Sequence record: PQ327946.1
Strand: one strand, 5' to 3'
DNA from: a phage
Length of the DNA stretch: 64,000 nt
In this document: piece after piece, positions 803-6,803 of the stretch
How positions within the stretch are numbered: the first letter of the stretch is position 1
Layout: each line of letters starts with the position of its first letter
Translations under genes and position numbers: made by a program
Notes under the pieces: generated by a model
The model's database searches: none
What the model was told of the DNA's origin: nothing
What the model saw: only the letters and a program-made list of their open reading frames with translations

Positions 803-1702
803 TTATTCCTCGATTACGACATCTTCATATTTAGGTATATTATACGGTGAAGAAATTAAAGCGTTAAAGTAGATGAACTCACCAAGACCTGGATGGAATA
901 CTTCTTCAGGATTTTCGAAATATTGAATCTTCGGACGTCCTTTAAGAATTTGATAGTACTCAGTTTTAGTTGGATTAAAAATTCGAATCAGCGCTTCTTC
1001 AGGATACTTATTTCTGTCGAAACTATTATTTGGATCAGTTATATAAAGCGGTTGACCTAATTGAATTGCGCATTCAACCACTTGTTCAAAACGATAGCAC
1101 GGGTCACTAATTCGAAATGGATGAAAAATACCATCTAGATGAATAGGAGCCAAATCACCTACAAGACGCTGCATGATGGAAGGACGTATAACTTTCTGCG
1201 TTACGATAATCTTATTACCATCCGCACCAGCGTTAACCAGCACTTCCTTTTGACGTTCATTCAACACAGTAGTTTGAAGTGAACGATTAACCGACAACAT
1301 GTCGGTTTTTAAGAATTCGTCAATATAAAAACGCGGTTTATTAGGGTCTGCGGTGATATTGAAATTGAATTCTACATCAAAAGCACCATCATATCCAGTG
1401 ATATCTGTTATTAGAAAATCACAATCATAATAAGCAATTAATGAATCAACCACAAATTCATTTTCAGACCAGAAATATTTACGAGTGTTATACGCGTTAT
1501 CTTTATACCATAATGGAACAAACTTAAATTCTGGGAAAAGACGTTCACATTCTTTAATATCAGATGCATTACGTGGATATGTAATCACATCACCTGGATT
1601 AGCACGGTGCAAATGAAGTTGGAAGTTGCCATCCTTAAGGATAGCATACTGTCCAGTTTCATAAGACCGCATACTCAAGATAGGTACGCGGAAAATAGCC
1701 AT
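803..1702 (-). CDS. Hypothetical protein in the syntenic slot of T4 beta-glucosyltransferase; candidate novel DNA-modifying transferase
   Basis: 299 aa ORF between uvsX and gene 42; no resemblance to T4 beta-gt as I recall it. Confidence 0.5.
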   Translation of the reverse strand: MAIFRVPILSMRSYETGQYAILKDGNFQLHLHRANPGDVITYPRNASDIKECERLFPEFKFVPLWYKDNAYNTRKYFWSENEFVVDSLIAYYDCDFLITDITGYDGAFDVEFNFNITADPNKPRFYIDEFLKTDMLSVNRSLQTTVLNERQKEVLVNAGADGNKIIVTQKVIRPSIMQRLVGDLAPIHLDGIFHPFRISDPCYRFEQVVECAIQLGQPLYITDPNNSFDRNKYPEEALIRIFNPTKTEYYQILKGRPKIQYFENPEEVFHPGLGEFIYFNALISSPYNIPKYEDVVIEE

Positions 1703-2418
1703 TAGTCAAGGAATCCTTTAACATAATCAAAATCACGTTCAAACACATGGGCACTTACCATGGTATGAGTATAATCACCAACTTCTACACCACATTCGTT
1801 AGCGATATAATGAAGTAATTTTCCTTGGAGATAAAAATCCAACTGCATAACAACAGCACAGTTCTGAGAACGCATATGGCAGTGGGTATAAAGCTTACCA
1901 TCACGAATATAATAAGTCACCGAGTCAGTACATGGATATTCAAGCGTTTCGTCCGAATCAAGCAAAGCCTGATCAGAACTTTCTAGAATTTGGAACACAA
2001 CTCTTCGGGAGTTAGGCTTCTCTTTAAGTTCTTTTAGAAGAGCTGGTAATTGGGCCGCAATGCGAGGACCATAGAAAGTGTTGAAGTTCGCCGGCAAAAC
2101 ATCTGATTTTGGTTTAGAAATAAATTTAGCGACATTAGGATATGCCTTAAACGCTTCTTCTGCGTCAGTACCACCAGAAATCATAAACTTCCAGAAGTCT
2201 TCGGCATATTCATAAGAGATGCGGTTAATACGTGGGTCGGTCATTTTGAATGATGATGGAGTGTCAACAACTACTGTCATAGACCCAATTTCATTACAAC
2301 GTCCAATACGAGAATCAGTTACGAATTCCGGGTTTTCTAAAATTTCACGATTGACTGCTTTAAATGCGGTTTGAAAATCTGCGGCTTTGATATATTTCAT
2401 TGTGTTATGTTTTCCCAT
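1702..2418 (-). CDS. 42: dCMP hydroxymethylase (thymidylate synthase family)
   Basis: 238 aa; ThyA-family motifs YPCTDS and MRSQN; position upstream of gene 43 as in T4. Confidence 0.75.
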   Translation of the reverse strand: MGKHNTMKYIKAADFQTAFKAVNREILENPEFVTDSRIGRCNEIGSMTVVVDTPSSFKMTDPRINRISYEYAEDFWKFMISGGTDAEEAFKAYPNVAKFISKPKSDVLPANFNTFYGPRIAAQLPALLKELKEKPNSRRVVFQILESSDQALLDSDETLEYPCTDSVTYYIRDGKLYTHCHMRSQNCAVVMQLDFYLQGKLLHYIANECGVEVGDYTHTMVSAHVFERDFDYVKGFLD

Positions 2419-2696
2419 GTTTACCTCAATACAATTTATTATATACTCAATTCGTAAAGCTTATTTGAATTTCTTGACAATGTTGATATAACGTAAAGCT
2501 TCAGCATCGATACTTCCAAGAACACTATGAAGAAATGCATCAGCGTAGTATTCCAATTAAACAGGTTCTTTAATCACTTTAGCCGCTTTAGTTTCAAACA
2601 GGCCCATCAGGGCCTTTTTAAGAATTTGTTCGATGCTGTTAATTTTCATAGTCAAAATCTCTTCGTTAAGTTGGTGGTTAAAAGTTTTTCTAGAAA

Positions 2697-3857
2697 TCAT
2701 TCTGGGTACCTCAAAGCGTCGTCAGAGTTAGTTATATCAATAATAGATATAGAATTTTCTGATAACCCATTTTTAGATAACTGACGTTTATAATATCTTT
2801 CACAATATGTACACGTCGTCCCGCAGATTTCATTAGCACAATCGAAATCTGGATGTTTGAACCACCTTTTTTCTAAAAAGCCATCTAACAAAGAGGTTTC
2901 AATATTTACCGTATGTGAAAACTCGGTCTCATTTTCAAGAGTGAAAATGGTCTCTAAAGGCTTCCACAATTCCAACAAATTACCTTCAAATTTTTCGGAA
3001 GCATAAGCTTCAAGAACTTTCAAAATGTAGTCTGTGCTACCTGTACGTCCTGAAACTTTGAATTGAGTGATACCAATATCATTATAAAGTTTCAAATCTT
3101 GAGGACGAACAAAACGAGTTCTCAACCAGTTAAATGGGTCTGTATCACGAGCTTTAATACAGTGCTGCATTGGATACCCATTTAAGGATTTGGCATCATC
3201 TACTGTAACATCGGTGCTATGGAAAATATAGCAAGAGTCACGATAACTACAATGTGTTGTATACCCTTTACCAGCATTAGAACAGAACTCATTTACAAGA
3301 ACTTCAAATATTATATTGTTCTTATTACAAAACTCTGCTGCACGCTTCAGGAAAGAAACTGAACGGTTCTTATGAATTCCGCAGCAGACCTTTTTGATAT
3401 TATATTGGTCATGCAAGTATTTGATTTGAGTTACAGCATCGACATGTAGAATTGTTGAAACTTCAATCTCAATGTCTTTATTGACTTCACGAACAATTTC
3501 CATAACAACAGGGTTAGCGATAGTAATACGCCATACGCCTATTGACCAAAGATACTGAACATAATCCTGAATAGCTTTCTTCTTCCACTCAACTAGTTCT
3601 CTTTTTGAACCAGGATTTATCGTGTTGAGTGTATAGTTAAAGCAAATACCTAATTCGTTACAACGTTTAACGTAGTCTTCTAACATCTTTTTGTCAACGT
3701 CAGGAAGCCTAAAATCAGGTCTGGCTGCTACAAAAGCCATTTCTCTTGTAGAGCCATATACTTCGTTTATCAAGCTATTAGGATAGGTTTTATTGAGCTC
3801 TACGATTTTATCAAGAAGAGCTAAATCAAAATTCGTTCCGATTTTAAAAGTATTCAT
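2697..3857 (-). CDS. U32-like TIM-barrel protein with C-terminal cysteine cluster
   Basis: 386 aa; N-terminal pattern resembles U32 family; C-terminal CANEICGTTCTYC cysteine cluster. Confidence 0.45.
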   Translation of the reverse strand: MNTFKIGTNFDLALLDKIVELNKTYPNSLINEVYGSTREMAFVAARPDFRLPDVDKKMLEDYVKRCNELGICFNYTLNTINPGSKRELVEWKKKAIQDYVQYLWSIGVWRITIANPVVMEIVREVNKDIEIEVSTILHVDAVTQIKYLHDQYNIKKVCCGIHKNRSVSFLKRAAEFCNKNNIIFEVLVNEFCSNAGKGYTTHCSYRDSCYIFHSTDVTVDDAKSLNGYPMQHCIKARDTDPFNWLRTRFVRPQDLKLYNDIGITQFKVSGRTGSTDYILKVLEAYASEKFEGNLLELWKPLETIFTLENETEFSHTVNIETSLLDGFLEKRWFKHPDFDCANEICGTTCTYCERYYKRQLSKNGLSENSISIIDITNSDDALRYPE

Positions 3858-3914: not shown

Positions 3915-4316
3915 TTATAGATTCGGTTTATATGATTTAAATGTTTCGAATTCGCCTTTATTCATAAGAGCTTTGAATTCGTCAGGACGCATAGCTTTGT
4001 CGTCGATAATCCAATCATATACTGGTTTATGTGTTAGCAAATTATGGTACTTCAATCCAATGTTTGCCAAGTTCTGAATCAGACTTGGGAGAATGTCAAT
4101 TGCTATACGACCAGGACCGACTGACTTCATACCGCGAGCAGTGTAAAGCGTTATGGTATGCCCTGCATCATACAGGGCATTAATGGCAGATACCATTTCG
4201 ACGTCTGGTTTGAAGTTCACGTAATCACGATTGTTATTCCACTCTGTTATACAATCATCGACATCAAAACAAAGATTAAGCATGTTTTCTACACGGTGCA
4301 TTAGATTCGTTCCCAT
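3915..4316 (-). CDS. HAD-superfamily phosphatase-like protein (start uncertain)
   Basis: 133 aa ORF; FDVDDCIT fits HAD motif I (DxD); alternative ATG starts at 4301 or 4283. Confidence 0.5.
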   Translation of the reverse strand: MGTNLMHRVENMLNLCFDVDDCITEWNNNRDYVNFKPDVEMVSAINALYDAGHTITLYTARGMKSVGPGRIAIDILPSLIQNLANIGLKYHNLLTHKPVYDWIIDDKAMRPDEFKALMNKGEFETFKSYKPNL

Positions 4317-5986
4317 TGATGAGTGATATCGCCACCGATTGGACGATAAGAAACACCAGTTTCTTTATCAGTTAGTACCCATTTACCAGGATTTTTTGTA
4401 ATCAGAGTAGCCGTTACAGGTTCTGCTACATCATAACTAATAGTGCCGTCCTGAAGTACACGGCCCATGTTACGTAATTGCTTAGTCAGAAGTTCCATAC
4501 CTTTATAATATGCGGCTACCGCTTTAAGTGGATTATTCTTGAAATAACCACCTAATGCAATCCAGATAATTGCTACAGCCAAATGATGATACTCATTAAA
4601 CGAACTCATCTTTCCATATTTGTAAACTAATGGATTGATGTTAATAGTCACATTACAAGTTGTTTCATCAATAGTAAACTGACCCCAGGTCGGATTAGCG
4701 TTGAATTCATCATAACCTGAAACAGCATAAAGCACTTTAGCTTCATCATACAATTTTGGCCCATAAATCTTGGTTTCACCAAAATATCCACGAGGGTCGA
4801 TAAACTTGACTTCACCATTATCAGTAATCATAGTATTACTGAAGTTCGGGTCACCATGAATAACAGAGTACTGTCCCTGAGAACGGTTATGATAACGAAT
4901 AAGGTGTTCTAAAGCTTGTTTCAGCATTGGCTTCAGACGCCCAATCTTAGTGTAGTTCACATGTGTGATTTTACCAAATGAATCAATCAATGGTTGAATA
5001 CTTTCACAACGATCAATAACTTTCGTATAGAATTCTTTAGTGAAATCACGACGAACAGTTTCAGGACTTACAAAATAAGTGTCTGTGCTGAATTTCAGTG
5101 CGTCTAAAATTGCATCAACAATTTGTGGACGAGCAAGACTCGATTTGGATTTAATATATTCAAATGCTGGCTTACCTTTAATGCGTTCCATTTCAAAGTT
5201 ATTTTCATTAACAGAAACTAACTGAGGAACTGAATCTGATTTCACTTTAAGATACCATGAAATCTCATCTTTCTGAAGAGCTCGTCCCTGTTCGGTTAAT
5301 GCGAATTTAGTTACAGTTTCTTCACCAATTTCAACTGCATTAAAACTACGATTAAGTTCACGAACTTCATGAGCTTTTTCAAGTTTAGGCATATCACCTA
5401 AATCAATTAGATTCATAAGCTCTGATTTATTGAATGCGCTGCCGTAAAGGAATTCTACGAAATCACGTCCTTTGCAGTATTCATGAATTTCCTCATCAGT
5501 AGAACCCATATAGAATTCCCAGTCTTTGAACTGATAAATTCCTACAACATTACCACCTGTTGAACCTACGTTAGTGATATTTTCGCCGTCGAAATTATAT
5601 CGACATTCGTCACCCTTAACATAGATTGCGTTAACATTCCAAGACCATGAACCAAAATCAGGAATAATATCACACCAGTTAACAATTACATTATGACCGT
5701 CTAAATCTTTGTGTAATTTAGCAAGAGCATAAGCAGAACCGTACGCTTCATCAACTGTACGAATAGTCACATTGAACCCTTCTTGCTCACAATAAACTCG
5801 AACAGTTTCAGCAAATTTTGAATGAACTACTACAATAATTTCATCTGCGCCAAGGTCAGAATAAATTGTATACAAATTGCTCAGAATAGTGTCTTGTTTA
5901 TAGTTAACAAGCACCTTAGGAATATGATGCGTTATTGGATACAAACGAGTTGCCAGTCCAGCACCAAGAATAACAGCTTTTTTCAT
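4301..5986 (-). CDS. Bifunctional sugar-1-phosphate nucleotidyltransferase / APH-fold sugar kinase
   Basis: 561 aa; N-terminal ILGAGLATRL nucleotidyltransferase signature; C-terminal HGDPNFSN ... DPRG kinase motifs. Confidence 0.6.
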   Translation of the reverse strand: MKKAVILGAGLATRLYPITHHIPKVLVNYKQDTILSNLYTIYSDLGADEIIVVVHSKFAETVRVYCEQEGFNVTIRTVDEAYGSAYALAKLHKDLDGHNVIVNWCDIIPDFGSWSWNVNAIYVKGDECRYNFDGENITNVGSTGGNVVGIYQFKDWEFYMGSTDEEIHEYCKGRDFVEFLYGSAFNKSELMNLIDLGDMPKLEKAHEVRELNRSFNAVEIGEETVTKFALTEQGRALQKDEISWYLKVKSDSVPQLVSVNENNFEMERIKGKPAFEYIKSKSSLARPQIVDAILDALKFSTDTYFVSPETVRRDFTKEFYTKVIDRCESIQPLIDSFGKITHVNYTKIGRLKPMLKQALEHLIRYHNRSQGQYSVIHGDPNFSNTMITDNGEVKFIDPRGYFGETKIYGPKLYDEAKVLYAVSGYDEFNANPTWGQFTIDETTCNVTININPLVYKYGKMSSFNEYHHLAVAIIWIALGGYFKNNPLKAVAAYYKGMELLTKQLRNMGRVLQDGTISYDVAEPVTATLITKNPGKWVLTDKETGVSYRPIGGDITHQWERI

Positions 5987-6167: not shown

Positions 6168-6803
6168 TCATTGTTCGCCTCGTAACATGGCACCTAGTGC
6201 ACCGCCAGGGTGGAACTTAAGGAAGTCATTAGAGGTAAATCCACGTTCAGACGAAAGGTTGATAGCAAACGTATCGATAAGCGCTAACAACAATGTAGTG
6301 GACATAGTCGGAGCCAGAGAATTCTCATCAACCTCTACTGCGATGCCTGTACAGAACGTATAATCAAAAAGAGCTTCGTATTCTTGTGGAATGTCTGGGT
6401 TACAATGCAACAGAATCTGTTTGACGTTCGGACGAATCATTTTAAGATGCTTAGCCACGCCTATCATTTCTTCAGTTTTACCAGAACGACTAATATGAAT
6501 CAACACATCATTAGGCGCAATGAATCCTGCATCACCGTGAGAATAATGCCCGGTGTTCAAGTACATACTCGGGATACCGAGTGAAGCAAATGTCTCAGAA
6601 GCTTTAGTTGCGATATTAGCGTTCTTACCAACACCTGTAATAATTACACGACTTTCATAATTACTAAGTCCTGGGCGTCGAAGAGTTTCTAGAATAGCAT
6701 TATAACGAGCAGGGTTTTGACTAATTACTTTGGCCATAGCGGCCAAAGAAGAAGCTTGTTTTATGATTGCGTCAATAGCGATAGTAATAGGAGTAGTTTT
6801 CAT
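6168..6803 (-). CDS. SIS-domain sugar-phosphate isomerase
   Basis: 211 aa; ITGVGKNANIA ... HISRSGKTEE pattern typical of SIS domains. Confidence 0.6.
   Translation of the reverse strand: MKTTPITIAIDAIIKQASSLAAMAKVISQNPARYNAILETLRRPGLSNYESRVIITGVGKNANIATKASETFASLGIPSMYLNTGHYSHGDAGFIAPNDVLIHISRSGKTEEMIGVAKHLKMIRPNVKQILLHCNPDIPQEYEALFDYTFCTGIAVEVDENSLAPTMSTTLLLALIDTFAINLSSERGFTSNDFLKFHPGGALGAMLRGEQ

What the first reader, a model, noticed from the sequence alone, without database searches (positions are those of the whole stretch)
4301..5986. Fusion of a sugar-1-P nucleotidyltransferase with an APH-fold kinase
N-terminal ILGAGLATRL is a sugar nucleotidyltransferase signature. The C-terminal half has HGDPNFSN and DPRG motifs of the aminoglycoside/choline-kinase fold, also used by anomeric sugar kinases. 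Such a fusion would convert a free sugar to its NDP derivative in one polypeptide, a salvage-type logic unusual in phages.
Basis: inference. Interest (0 to 1): 0.75.

Follow-up and report, generated by a model that had tools for sequence, protein, structure and literature searches.

The report
Known phage UDP-arabinose kinase/nucleotidyltransferase fusion
This gene really does encode a two-domain enzyme that joins a sugar-nucleotide-forming domain to a small-molecule kinase, but it is the already published RB69 gp52:53 / "AfhE" enzyme that makes UDP-arabinofuranose for decorating phage DNA, so it is real and functional but not new.

Summary
Window 4301-5986 (minus strand) is one intact 561-aa ORF. 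It has an N-terminal sugar-1-phosphate nucleotidyltransferase domain (aa 1-205), a C-terminal small-molecule kinase of the APH/choline-kinase fold (aa 210-507), and a 54-aa tail. Catalytic motifs in both halves are invariant across 42 homologues.

The window comes from an RB69-like Mosigvirus. The protein is 99.3% identical to frameshift-corrected RB69 gp52:53 (ORF53_52c). Thomas et al. 2018 identified that protein, and Lee et al. 2026 equate it with AfhE of phage HY126, which He et al. 2026 report as a D-arabinose-5-phosphate kinase plus UDP-D-arabinose pyrophosphorylase.

The route is de novo and resembles the heptose pathway: ribulose-5-P → Ara-5-P (neighbouring SIS isomerase) → Ara-1,5-P2 (kinase domain) → Araf-1-P (neighbouring HAD phosphatase) → UDP-Araf (NTase domain). 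UDP-Araf is then transferred onto 5-hydroxycytosine in DNA. The fusion is also not rare: 374 phage records carry it.

Verdict: already known, low interest.

The most interesting thing I found is next door. A highly conserved U32-family Fe-S protein, paired with a chorismate mutase in sister genera, may give an O2-independent, prephenate-dependent route to 5-hydroxy-dC. None of the papers I could read makes this link.

The parts
4301..5986 (-). Whole gene: 561-aa bifunctional NTase/kinase, orthologue of RB69 gp52:53 (ORF53_52c), AfhE-type; stop codon at 4301-4303
   Evidence: The ORF is listed. It is 97.6% nt identical to RB69 and 99.3% aa identical after removing the reference's extra C at codon 219. 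RB69 annotates it as two ORFs, p053 and p052.
5372..5986 (-). N-terminal sugar-1-phosphate nucleotidyltransferase domain (aa 1-205)
   Evidence: Pfam NTP_transferase, E 2e-9, above its cut-off. PDB phmmer best hit is LicC 1jyk, E 1.7e-5. Foldseek matches LicC, MurU, RmlA, HddC and IPCT at E about 1e-8 and TM(target) 0.62-0.71.
5915..5965 (-). NTP-binding signature GAGLATRLYPITHHIPK (aa 8-24; G-x-G-T-R...P-K)
   Evidence: Read directly from the sequence. G10, R14 and K24 are invariant in 42 homologues.
4466..5359 (-). Small-molecule kinase domain of the APH/choline-kinase fold (aa 210-507)
4835..4858 (-). Brenner phosphotransferase motif HGDPNFSN (H-x-D-x4-N, aa 377-384); D379 is the putative catalytic base
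   Evidence: Read from the sequence. H377, G378, D379, S383 and N384 are invariant.
4787..4798 (-). DPRG (aa 397-400); D397 is the DFG-equivalent Mg2+-binding Asp
   Evidence: Read from the sequence. I396, D397, P398, R399 and G400 are invariant.
4304..4465 (-). C-terminal 54-aa tail (aa 508-561), an extra module absent from distant homologues
   Evidence: Distant homologues cover the query only to about aa 502. pLDDT is 78-87. The tail matches stand-alone phage proteins of 58-60 aa at 38-40% identity, TM(target) 0.71-0.72 (ranks 45 and 49).
3915..4316 (-). Downstream small HAD-type phosphatase (RB69 gp51, AfhF-like). Its likely start ATG at 4299-4301 overlaps the upstream TAA stop (TAATG)
   Evidence: NCBIfam TIGR01689 capsule-biosynthesis phosphatase, E 4e-13, below its cut-off. 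PHROG 1238. The DVDD motif is visible in the translation. The role as Araf-1,5-P2 5-phosphatase comes from PMC13326640.
6168..6803 (-). Upstream SIS-domain arabinose-5-phosphate isomerase (RB69 gp55)
   Evidence: Pfam SIS. NCBIfam KpsF/GutQ E 2e-32 and KdsD E 1e-30, both below the full-length cut-offs. PHROG 5670 'arabinose 5-phosphate isomerase', E 2e-116.
1702..2418 (-). Thymidylate-synthase homologue (RB69 gp48), reported as a flavin/O2-dependent 5-hydroxy-dCMP synthase that makes the sugar acceptor
   Evidence: Pfam Thymidylat_synt. Function shown experimentally for RB69 gp48 in PMC13326640.
803..1702 (-). 299-aa ORF corresponding to RB69 gp46:47, the proposed first DNA arabinosyltransferase. 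It is intact here but split in the RB69 reference
   Evidence: PHROG 3891. The assignment comes from structure-based analysis in PMC13326640; I did not test it.
2697..3857 (-). U32-family protein (RB69 gp50). An accessory member of the cluster and a candidate O2-independent hydroxylase (my hypothesis)
   Evidence: Pfam Peptidase_U32, E 6e-11. At least 82% identical in 222 phage records. Ten invariant Cys. Absent from the Acinetobacter DLP1 and E. coli Bp7 clusters.
2461..2700 (-). Small ORF homologous to RB69p049, interrupted here by an in-frame TAA at 2557-2559. It is syntenic with a true chorismate mutase in other genera

Best explanation
The gene encodes the Mosigvirus orthologue of RB69 gp52:53, an AfhE-type enzyme. 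It is a bifunctional enzyme of a phage-encoded de novo pathway to UDP-D-arabinofuranose, the donor used to arabinosylate 5-hydroxycytosine in phage DNA.

The proposed steps are:
1. The neighbouring SIS isomerase (6168-6803) converts host ribulose-5-P to D-arabinose-5-P.
2. The C-terminal APH-fold kinase domain uses ATP to phosphorylate the anomeric C1-OH of Ara-5-P, giving Araf-1,5-bisphosphate. Residues involved are K227/E241 for ATP, D379 as catalytic base, and N384/D397 for Mg2+.
3. The translationally coupled HAD phosphatase (3915-4316) removes the 5-phosphate, giving Araf-1-P.
4. The N-terminal nucleotidyltransferase domain (G10/R14/K24, D106, D195) condenses Araf-1-P with UTP to give UDP-Araf and PPi.
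5. Phage glycosyltransferases transfer Araf onto 5-hydroxy-C.

Shown here: the architecture, the folds, the invariance of the catalytic motifs, the gene neighbourhood, and near-identity to RB69 gp52:53.

Taken from the literature, for homologues only: the substrate order and UTP specificity (HY126 AfhE/AfhF, as relayed by Lee et al. 2026), and use of UDP-Araf by phage glycosyltransferases.

My inference: phosphorylating C1 while C5 still carries a phosphate locks the pentose in the furanose ring. That explains how UDP-Araf is made without a pyranose/furanose mutase.
For: Architecture and folds. Invariant catalytic residues in both domains across 42 homologues at 28-75% identity.

Identity to RB69: 4 differences in 561 aa after correcting the known reference frameshift. 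Thomas 2018 resequenced the gene and saw a single 63.9-kDa product.

Literature: Lee et al. [quoted passage not shown] NMR shows D-Araf on 5-hydroxy-dC in RB69. UDP-Araf is the donor accepted by DLP3 gp76+gp77 on RB69 DNA.

Neighbourhood: SIS isomerase, fusion gene and HAD phosphatase are conserved together in RB69, Entb_45 and DLP1. The fusion gene's stop overlaps the HAD gene's start (TAATG).

Rosetta-stone evidence: relatives of 890-955 aa carry HAD, SIS, NTase and APH-kinase domains in one polypeptide.

Genetics: the 54%-identical Thanatos TH1_060 is essential for phage propagation.
Against: I could not read the primary biochemical paper (He et al. 2026) or obtain the HY126 AfhE sequence. 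The substrate order therefore rests on a second-hand description, and orthology to AfhE rests on Lee et al.'s equation.

Lee et al.'s own Table 1 still lists the alternative order, with gp51 dephosphorylating Araf5P to Ara and the C-terminal domain phosphorylating Ara to Araf1P.

The window protein itself does not reach any Pfam kinase threshold; it gives only sub-threshold Fructosamin_kin, EcKL and RIO1 hits.

Purified Thanatos TH1_060 gave no NDP-sugar from xylose-1-P with any of five NTPs. That fits Araf-1-P specificity but is not positive evidence.

Nucleotide specificity cannot be read from the sequence.
Confidence: 0.8

Rival explanations
1. Free-sugar route. The HAD phosphatase first makes free D-arabinose from Ara-5-P, or the sugar is scavenged. 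The kinase domain then phosphorylates the free sugar at C1, and the NTase domain activates it at once, so the two consecutive steps happen in one polypeptide as in AmgK/MurU or LicA/LicC.
For: APH-fold anomeric kinases that act on free sugars (NahK) and the LicA/LicC pair are among the structural neighbours. Table 1 of PMC13326640 lists exactly this order. A fusion of consecutive steps is the more common design (my own knowledge).
Against: The revised text of the same paper, citing in vitro work on HY126 AfhE/AfhF, gives Ara-5-P as the kinase substrate and Ara-1,5-P2 as the phosphatase substrate. Free D-arabinose is mainly pyranose (established carbohydrate chemistry), whereas the DNA carries Araf and the transferases use UDP-Araf. 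The presence of a dedicated isomerase argues for de novo supply rather than salvage.
Confidence: 0.1
2. The protein is itself the DNA or nucleotide pentosyltransferase. On this view the N-terminal 'GT-A-like' domain transfers the sugar to cytosine, as suggested for Thanatos TH1_060.
For: CD-search places the N-terminus in the GT-A superfamily, and the Thanatos authors keep it as a glycosyltransferase candidate.
Against: The N-terminus carries the G-x-G-T-R...P-K pyrophosphorylase signature. It matches LicC, MurU, RmlA and HddC, not glycosyltransferases. TH1_060 showed no transfer activity. Separate GT-B-type transferases are encoded in the cluster.
Confidence: 0.02
3. The C-terminal half is a protein kinase or a degenerate, non-catalytic domain.
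Confidence: 0.02

Closest known systems
RB69 gp52:53 (ORF53_52c) / HY126 AfhE. Sources: Thomas et al. 2018, PMC6024577; Lee et al. 2026, PMC13326640; He et al. 2026, Nat Chem Biol (not readable here)
   Same: It is the same protein as RB69 gp52:53: 557 of 561 residues are identical. The gene neighbourhood is the same, as is the two-domain architecture of NTase followed by kinase.
   Different: There is no functional difference. The window copy is intact, whereas the RB69 reference has a one-base sequencing error that splits the gene. Percent identity to HY126 AfhE could not be measured.
Nucleotide-activated heptose pathway: GmhA (SIS isomerase), HldE or HddA (anomeric kinase acting on the sugar 7-phosphate), GmhB (HAD phosphatase), HldE-C or HddC (nucleotidyltransferase). 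E. coli HldE is a bifunctional kinase/adenylyltransferase (my own knowledge).
   Same: The four-step logic is identical: isomerase, then anomeric kinase on a sugar phosphate, then distal-phosphate HAD phosphatase, then NTase. As in HldE, the two non-consecutive steps (kinase and NTase) are fused. HddC is a structural match of the N-terminal domain (5xhw).
   Different: The kinase fold differs. HldE has a PfkB/ribokinase-like kinase and HddA a GHMP kinase, whereas this protein has an APH/choline-kinase fold. HldE's transferase is of the cytidylyltransferase type. The sugar is a pentofuranose and the product goes onto DNA rather than LPS. The resemblance is convergent: it works like HldE but is not a family member.
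LicC/LicA of Streptococcus pneumoniae, and the LicCA fusion of Treponema denticola (Kent et al. 2004; my own recollection, not verified here)
   Different: The substrate there is choline and the nucleotide is CTP. The two steps are consecutive with no intervening phosphatase. Identity to this protein is only 12-19%.
AmgK/MurU (MurNAc salvage) and NahK: APH-fold anomeric sugar kinases plus a minimal uridylyltransferase
   Different: Those enzymes act on free sugars (salvage), are separate polypeptides, and need no phosphatase.
5-Methylthioribose kinase (MtnK)
   Different: It is a single-domain enzyme of the methionine salvage pathway, and its C5 substituent is a thioether rather than a phosphate.

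Membership tests
Sugar-1-phosphate nucleotidyltransferase (Pfam PF00483; RmlA/LicC/MurU type) | Profile match above the curated threshold | tested here: met
   PF00483 matches at E 2e-9, 37.8 bits against a cut-off of 21.2, over aa 3-99. 32 of 42 family members also match.
Sugar-1-phosphate nucleotidyltransferase (Pfam PF00483; RmlA/LicC/MurU type) | N-terminal G-x-G-[TS]-R-x(n)-P-K NTP-binding signature and two metal/substrate Asp residues | tested here: met
   GAGLATRLYPITHHIPK spans aa 8-24. G10, R14, K24, D106, D195, G197 and D198 are invariant. The roles assigned to the Asp residues are inferred by analogy.
Sugar-1-phosphate nucleotidyltransferase (Pfam PF00483; RmlA/LicC/MurU type) | Rossmann-like alpha/beta fold superposable on solved members | tested here: met
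   Foldseek E about 1e-8 and TM(target) 0.62-0.71 to 1jyl, 4y7t, 2xme, 4ecm and 5xhw, using a model with pLDDT 93.9.
APH / choline-kinase-fold small-molecule kinases (Pfam PF01636 and relatives) | Profile match above the curated threshold for this protein | tested here: not met
   Only sub-threshold hits were found: Fructosamin_kin 17.0 bits, EcKL 16.1 and RIO1 16.1. Eleven of 42 homologues do match PF01636, best E 6e-10. The family is therefore a divergent member of the clan at the sequence level.
APH / choline-kinase-fold small-molecule kinases (Pfam PF01636 and relatives) | Brenner motif H-x-D-x4-N, DFG-equivalent Asp, and beta3 Lys / alphaC Glu pair | tested here: met
   H377-G-D379-PNFS-N384, D397, K227 and E241 are all invariant.
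APH / choline-kinase-fold small-molecule kinases (Pfam PF01636 and relatives) | Bilobal kinase fold closer to small-molecule kinases than to protein kinases | tested here: met
AfhE-type bifunctional Ara-5-P 1-kinase / UDP-Araf pyrophosphorylase (He et al. 2026, as relayed by PMC13326640) | NTase N-terminal domain plus kinase C-terminal domain in one polypeptide | tested here: met
AfhE-type bifunctional Ara-5-P 1-kinase / UDP-Araf pyrophosphorylase (He et al. 2026, as relayed by PMC13326640) | Clustered with an A5P isomerase, a HAD phosphatase (AfhF), a ThyA-like 5-hydroxy-dCMP synthase and a DNA arabinosyltransferase | tested here: met
   Window genes at 6168-6803, 3915-4316, 1702-2418 and 803-1702. 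The same order is found in RB69.
AfhE-type bifunctional Ara-5-P 1-kinase / UDP-Araf pyrophosphorylase (He et al. 2026, as relayed by PMC13326640) | Sequence orthology to HY126 AfhE | not testable with these tools
   Neither the HY126 sequence nor its accession was available. The indirect evidence is 99.3% identity to RB69 gp52:53, which Lee et al. equate with AfhE.
AfhE-type bifunctional Ara-5-P 1-kinase / UDP-Araf pyrophosphorylase (He et al. 2026, as relayed by PMC13326640) | Ara-5-P kinase activity and UTP:Araf-1-P uridylyltransferase activity | not testable with these tools
   This needs an enzyme assay. The activities are reported for HY126 AfhE only, and I have them second-hand.
HldE-type heptose kinase/adenylyltransferase | PfkB (ribokinase-like) kinase domain plus cytidylyltransferase-like domain | tested here: not met
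   No PfkB or CTP_transf_like match was found. The folds are APH-like and RmlA-like. The protein works like HldE but is not a member of that family.
Eukaryotic-type protein kinases | Closest structural and sequence neighbours are protein kinases | tested here: not met

The most novel reading that the evidence does not exclude
The fusion enzyme itself offers little room for novelty, but the operon it sits in may be larger than the published pathway. Between the HAD phosphatase gene and the 5-hydroxy-dCMP synthase gene lies a U32-family Fe-S protein (window 2697-3857). In 51 sister phages it is immediately followed by a genuine type II chorismate mutase.

Cellular U32 proteins (RlhA, TrhP, UbiU/V) carry out O2-independent hydroxylations that depend on prephenate, and RlhA makes 5-hydroxy-C in rRNA. 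The published phage 5-hydroxy-dCMP synthase needs O2.

The reading my evidence does not exclude is that U32, with or without the chorismate mutase, is an anaerobic, prephenate-dependent back-up route to 5-hydroxy-dC. That would keep the arabinosylation pathway fed by this fusion enzyme working in the anoxic gut.

This concerns the neighbouring gene, not coordinates 4301-5986. He et al. 2026 or Mahler et al. 2025, which I could not read, may already address it.
Probability: 0.35. Interest if true: 0.65.

Novelty: already known. Interest (0 to 1): 0.2.

Why it matters
The enzyme supplies UDP-D-arabinofuranose, a sugar nucleotide the E. coli host does not make. That allows the phage to replace every cytosine with arabinosylated 5-hydroxycytosine and so escape restriction enzymes, DNA glycosylases and some CRISPR systems (PMC13326640, PMC13216743). 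This significance has already been recognised and published.

For the scan, the useful outcomes are these:
- Its pathway logic needs correcting from salvage to a de novo, heptose-like route.
- The neighbouring U32/chorismate-mutase pair deserves its own follow-up. If it is a prephenate-dependent deoxycytidylate hydroxylase, it would be the first U32 hydroxylase acting in DNA-precursor metabolism. It would also be an example of a phage carrying both aerobic and anaerobic solutions to the same modification step.

Tried and rejected
- I tried to read the primary AfhE papers by DOI (He et al. 2026; Mahler et al. 2025). Neither is held. Searches for preprint versions found only citing papers.
- I looked for a HY126 accession in the supplements of PMC13326640. 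None are held.
- AFDB50 fold search is not installed, so I used BFVD instead.
- My first pairwise-alignment script read the wrong record and gave a meaningless 50% identity. It was corrected.
- I considered a beta-phosphoglucomutase-like mutase route, with the HAD protein interconverting Ara-5-P and Ara-1-P and the kinase only priming the bisphosphate cofactor. I rejected it as unlikely: the phage HAD protein is a 133-aa cap-less core, and the literature reports phosphatase activity.
- I considered that the Mosigvirus small ORF (RB69p049) is a diverged chorismate mutase. This is not supported: it has no Pfam or NCBIfam hit and no BLASTP similarity to the Entb_45 chorismate mutase.
- A profile search of the U32 alignment against PDB sequences found nothing meaningful.
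Full report
**Observation.** The interval 4301-5986 is exactly one ORF on the minus strand, 561 aa plus a stop at 4301-4303. The window is AT-rich (GC about 0.37). Its neighbours are a T4-type replication module with DNA polymerase gp43, regA, the gp62/44 clamp loader and the gp45 clamp. The gene is 98.9% nt identical to several Mosigvirus genomes and occurs in 171 phage records at the DNA level.

**What the protein is.** Pfam places aa 3-99 in NTP_transferase above the curated cut-off. The C-terminal half gives only sub-threshold kinase hits. I collected homologues and aligned 42 of them spanning 28-75% identity. Invariant positions include:
- the pyrophosphorylase signature residues G10, R14 and K24, plus D106, D195, G197 and D198;
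- in the second half, K227, E241, H377-G-D379-x4-N384 and I-D397-P-R-G.

The second set is the ATP-binding Lys/Glu pair, the Brenner phosphotransferase motif and the Mg-binding Asp of APH/choline-kinase-type kinases.

AlphaFold2 gave confident models of the full-length protein (pLDDT 93.9, pTM 0.89) and of aa 205-561 (pLDDT 94.0). Foldseek against the PDB matches the N-terminal domain to LicC, MurU, RmlA, HddC and IPCT (E about 1e-8, TM(target) 0.62-0.71). LicC is also the best sequence hit among solved structures.

The last 54 residues (aa 508-561) are an extra tail. Distant homologues stop at about aa 502. The tail resembles stand-alone phage proteins of 58-60 aa.

**It is a known protein.** The RB69 reference annotates this gene as two ORFs, RB69p053 and RB69p052. 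The window copy differs from RB69 by 39 substitutions and by the absence of one C at codon 219. With that base removed, the proteins differ at 4 of 561 positions.

Thomas et al. 2018 resequenced exactly this region. They found that the reference C-29116 is an error, named the 561-residue product ORF53_52c, and saw a single band of about 64 kDa. With the SIS protein ORF055c, they proposed a role in UDP-arabinose synthesis, partly on the basis of a multidomain Butyrivibrio homologue (PMC6024577).

Lee et al. 2026 (PMC13326640) report several further points:
- RB69 DNA carries beta-D-Araf-(1-3)-alpha-D-Araf on 5-hydroxycytosine, not on hydroxymethylcytosine.
- The ThyA homologue gp48 is an O2/flavin-dependent 5-hydroxy-dCMP synthase.
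- UDP-Araf is a working donor for phage transferases.
- gp52:53 corresponds to AfhE of phage HY126. Citing He et al. [quoted passage not shown] They equate gp51 with the Mg2+-dependent phosphatase AfhF.

The Durham-collection paper and the Thanatos paper describe the same cluster. In Thanatos the 54%-identical TH1_060 is essential for phage propagation.

**How it most likely works.** The neighbours fit the published pathway.
- Upstream, 6168-6803 is a SIS-domain KpsF/GutQ/KdsD-like arabinose-5-phosphate isomerase.
- Downstream, 3915-4316 is a minimal HAD phosphatase with a DVDD nucleophile motif. Its start overlaps the fusion gene's stop as TAATG, which suggests translational coupling.

The route is ribulose-5-P → Ara-5-P → Ara-1,5-P2 (kinase domain) → Araf-1-P (HAD) → UDP-Araf (NTase domain). 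The fusion therefore catalyses steps 2 and 4, not two consecutive steps.

This is the logic of the nucleotide-heptose pathway (GmhA, HldE kinase, GmhB, HldE transferase; my own knowledge), built from different folds.

My own inference is that phosphorylating C1 while O5 is still blocked by phosphate fixes the furanose ring. That explains how a furanosyl nucleotide sugar is made without a mutase.

Independent support for the functional coupling comes from relatives of 890-955 aa that carry HAD, SIS, NTase and APH-type kinase domains in a single chain.

What I did not show: the substrate order and the UTP specificity. Both come second-hand from the literature, and Table 1 of Lee et al. still lists the alternative order through free arabinose.

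The fusion and both fold assignments are right. 'Free sugar to NDP-sugar, salvage-type' is probably wrong, since the pathway is de novo from the pentose-phosphate pool with an intervening phosphatase. 'Unusual in phages' is wrong in the sense that 374 phage records encode the fusion. These include Mosigvirus at 96-100% identity, other enterobacterial T-even relatives at 66-73%, Acinetobacter phages at about 50-57%, Dhakavirus, Klebsiella and Proteus phages at about 42%, and a few jumbo phages at about 28%.

**Comparison with known systems.** The protein is a member of the NTP_transferase family: profile, signature and fold were all tested and met. It is also a structurally clear, sequence-divergent member of the APH/choline-kinase clan: motifs and fold were met, but its own Pfam threshold was not. 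It is, for practical purposes, RB69 gp52:53. It works like HldE without being a member of that family. The nearest architectures built from the same two folds are LicC/LicA, which I recall are fused as LicCA in Treponema denticola (not verified), and MurU/AmgK. Both of those act on unphosphorylated substrates in consecutive steps.

**Side observations.**

1. *The U32-family protein at 2697-3857 (RB69 gp50).*
   - Lee et al. label it only 'sugar or heterocycle reductase'.
   - It is at least 82% identical in all 222 phage records that have it, far more conserved than the fusion enzyme in the same genera.
   - It has ten invariant cysteines, including a C-terminal CX4CX3CX2C.
   - It is absent from the otherwise syntenic clusters of Acinetobacter phage DLP1 and E. 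coli phage Bp7.
   - In 51 phages, including Klebsiella, Serratia LC53 and 92A1, Yersinia, Enterobacter and Thanatos, a 75-79-aa ORF between U32 and the ThyA-like gene is a genuine type II chorismate mutase (CM_2, 40.9 bits against a cut-off of 27).
   - Relatives of this U32 subfamily on other large phage-like contigs sit beside dCMP deaminase, NT5C, dNK and nucleoside deoxyribosyltransferase genes.
   - Cellular U32 Fe-S proteins need prephenate, the chorismate mutase product, for O2-independent hydroxylation. RlhA makes 5-hydroxy-C in 23S rRNA (PMC5727448, PMC10990095).
   - I therefore propose an anaerobic route to 5-hydroxy-dC. No held paper makes this link, but the two key primary papers were unreadable.

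2. *The Mosigvirus small ORF.* In Mosigvirus the syntenic small ORF (RB69p049) is not detectably a chorismate mutase. In this window it carries an in-frame stop.

3. *The four-domain fusions.* They lie in giant-virus-like contigs with MutS7-HNH, Rpb2, dUTPase, glycosyltransferases and epimerases nearby.

**Verdict.** The feature is real and functional but already known, so interest is low (0.2). The neighbouring U32/chorismate-mutase pair is the lead worth passing on.

Noticed in passing
window 2697-3857 (-): The U32-family protein (RB69 gp50) is at least 82% identical in all 222 phage records that carry it and has 10 invariant Cys. It is absent from Acinetobacter (DLP1) and Dhakavirus (Bp7) versions of the cluster. 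Cellular U32 proteins are prephenate-dependent, O2-independent hydroxylases, and RlhA makes 5-hydroxy-C in rRNA. It could be an anaerobic route to 5-hydroxy-dC. Papers I could read label it only 'peptidase' or 'sugar or heterocycle reductase'.
   Followed up: partly
L002 6158-6397 (Enterobacter phage Entb_45), plus 50 other phage records: A 75-79-aa ORF wedged between the U32 gene and the ThyA-like 5-hydroxy-dCMP synthase gene is a genuine type II chorismate mutase (Pfam CM_2, 40.9 bits, above threshold). Its product is prephenate, the co-substrate of U32 hydroxylases. It is present in Klebsiella, Serratia (LC53, 92A1), Yersinia, Edwardsiella, Erwinia and Providencia phages and in Thanatos.
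   Followed up: partly
window 2461-2700 (-), stop at 2557-2559: The homologue of RB69p049 (79 aa) carries an in-frame TAA where RB69 has Gln48, splitting it into 47 and 31 codons. The segment is 100% identical to phage vB_EcoM_JQD51. RB69p049 has no detectable similarity to the chorismate mutase that occupies the same position in other genera.
   Followed up: partly
window 4304-4465 (-), aa 508-561 of the fusion protein: This 54-residue C-terminal tail is missing from distant homologues. It matches stand-alone proteins of 58-60 aa from uncultured Caudovirales phages (38-40% identity, TM about 0.72). Its function is unknown; it may be a docking module.
   Followed up: no
L005 7001-9781; L007 1-1144 and 7001-9679; proteins P0084, P0088, P0089, P0091, P0092, P0118: Relatives of 890-955 aa fuse HAD, SIS, NTase and APH-kinase domains, putting the whole ribulose-5-P to NDP-pentose pathway in one chain. 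They lie in giant-virus-like contigs with MutS7-HNH, RNA polymerase Rpb2, dUTPase, GT2 and sugar epimerases. One comes from a eukaryote transcriptome set. This suggests nucleocytoviruses make a related NDP-pentofuranose, perhaps for virion glycans.
   Followed up: partly
window 803-1702 (-): This single 299-aa ORF corresponds to RB69p046 plus RB69p047. It supports the published statement that the split in the RB69 reference is a sequencing error. It has no Pfam or NCBIfam hit, and the literature proposes it as the first DNA arabinosyltransferase.
   Followed up: no
window 4299-4303 (-): The stop codon of the fusion gene overlaps the probable start of the HAD phosphatase gene (TAATG). This suggests translational coupling between the enzyme for steps 2 and 4 and the enzyme for step 3.
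   Followed up: no
literature: PMC13326640, Table 1 versus the text of the UDP-arabinose section: The paper is internally inconsistent about the order of steps. Table 1 says gp51 dephosphorylates Araf5P to Ara and the C-terminal domain phosphorylates Ara. The text, revised after He et al., says the C-terminal domain phosphorylates Araf5P and gp51 dephosphorylates Araf1,5P.
   Followed up: yes
L010 (Escherichia phage Bp7) 5440-10151: The Dhakavirus version of the cluster has the fusion gene (42% identity), the HAD gene, a thymidylate-kinase-like gene and a ThyA-like gene. It has no U32 gene and no annotated SIS isomerase; a 166-aa hypothetical protein sits in that position. Its DNA modification may differ.
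   Followed up: no
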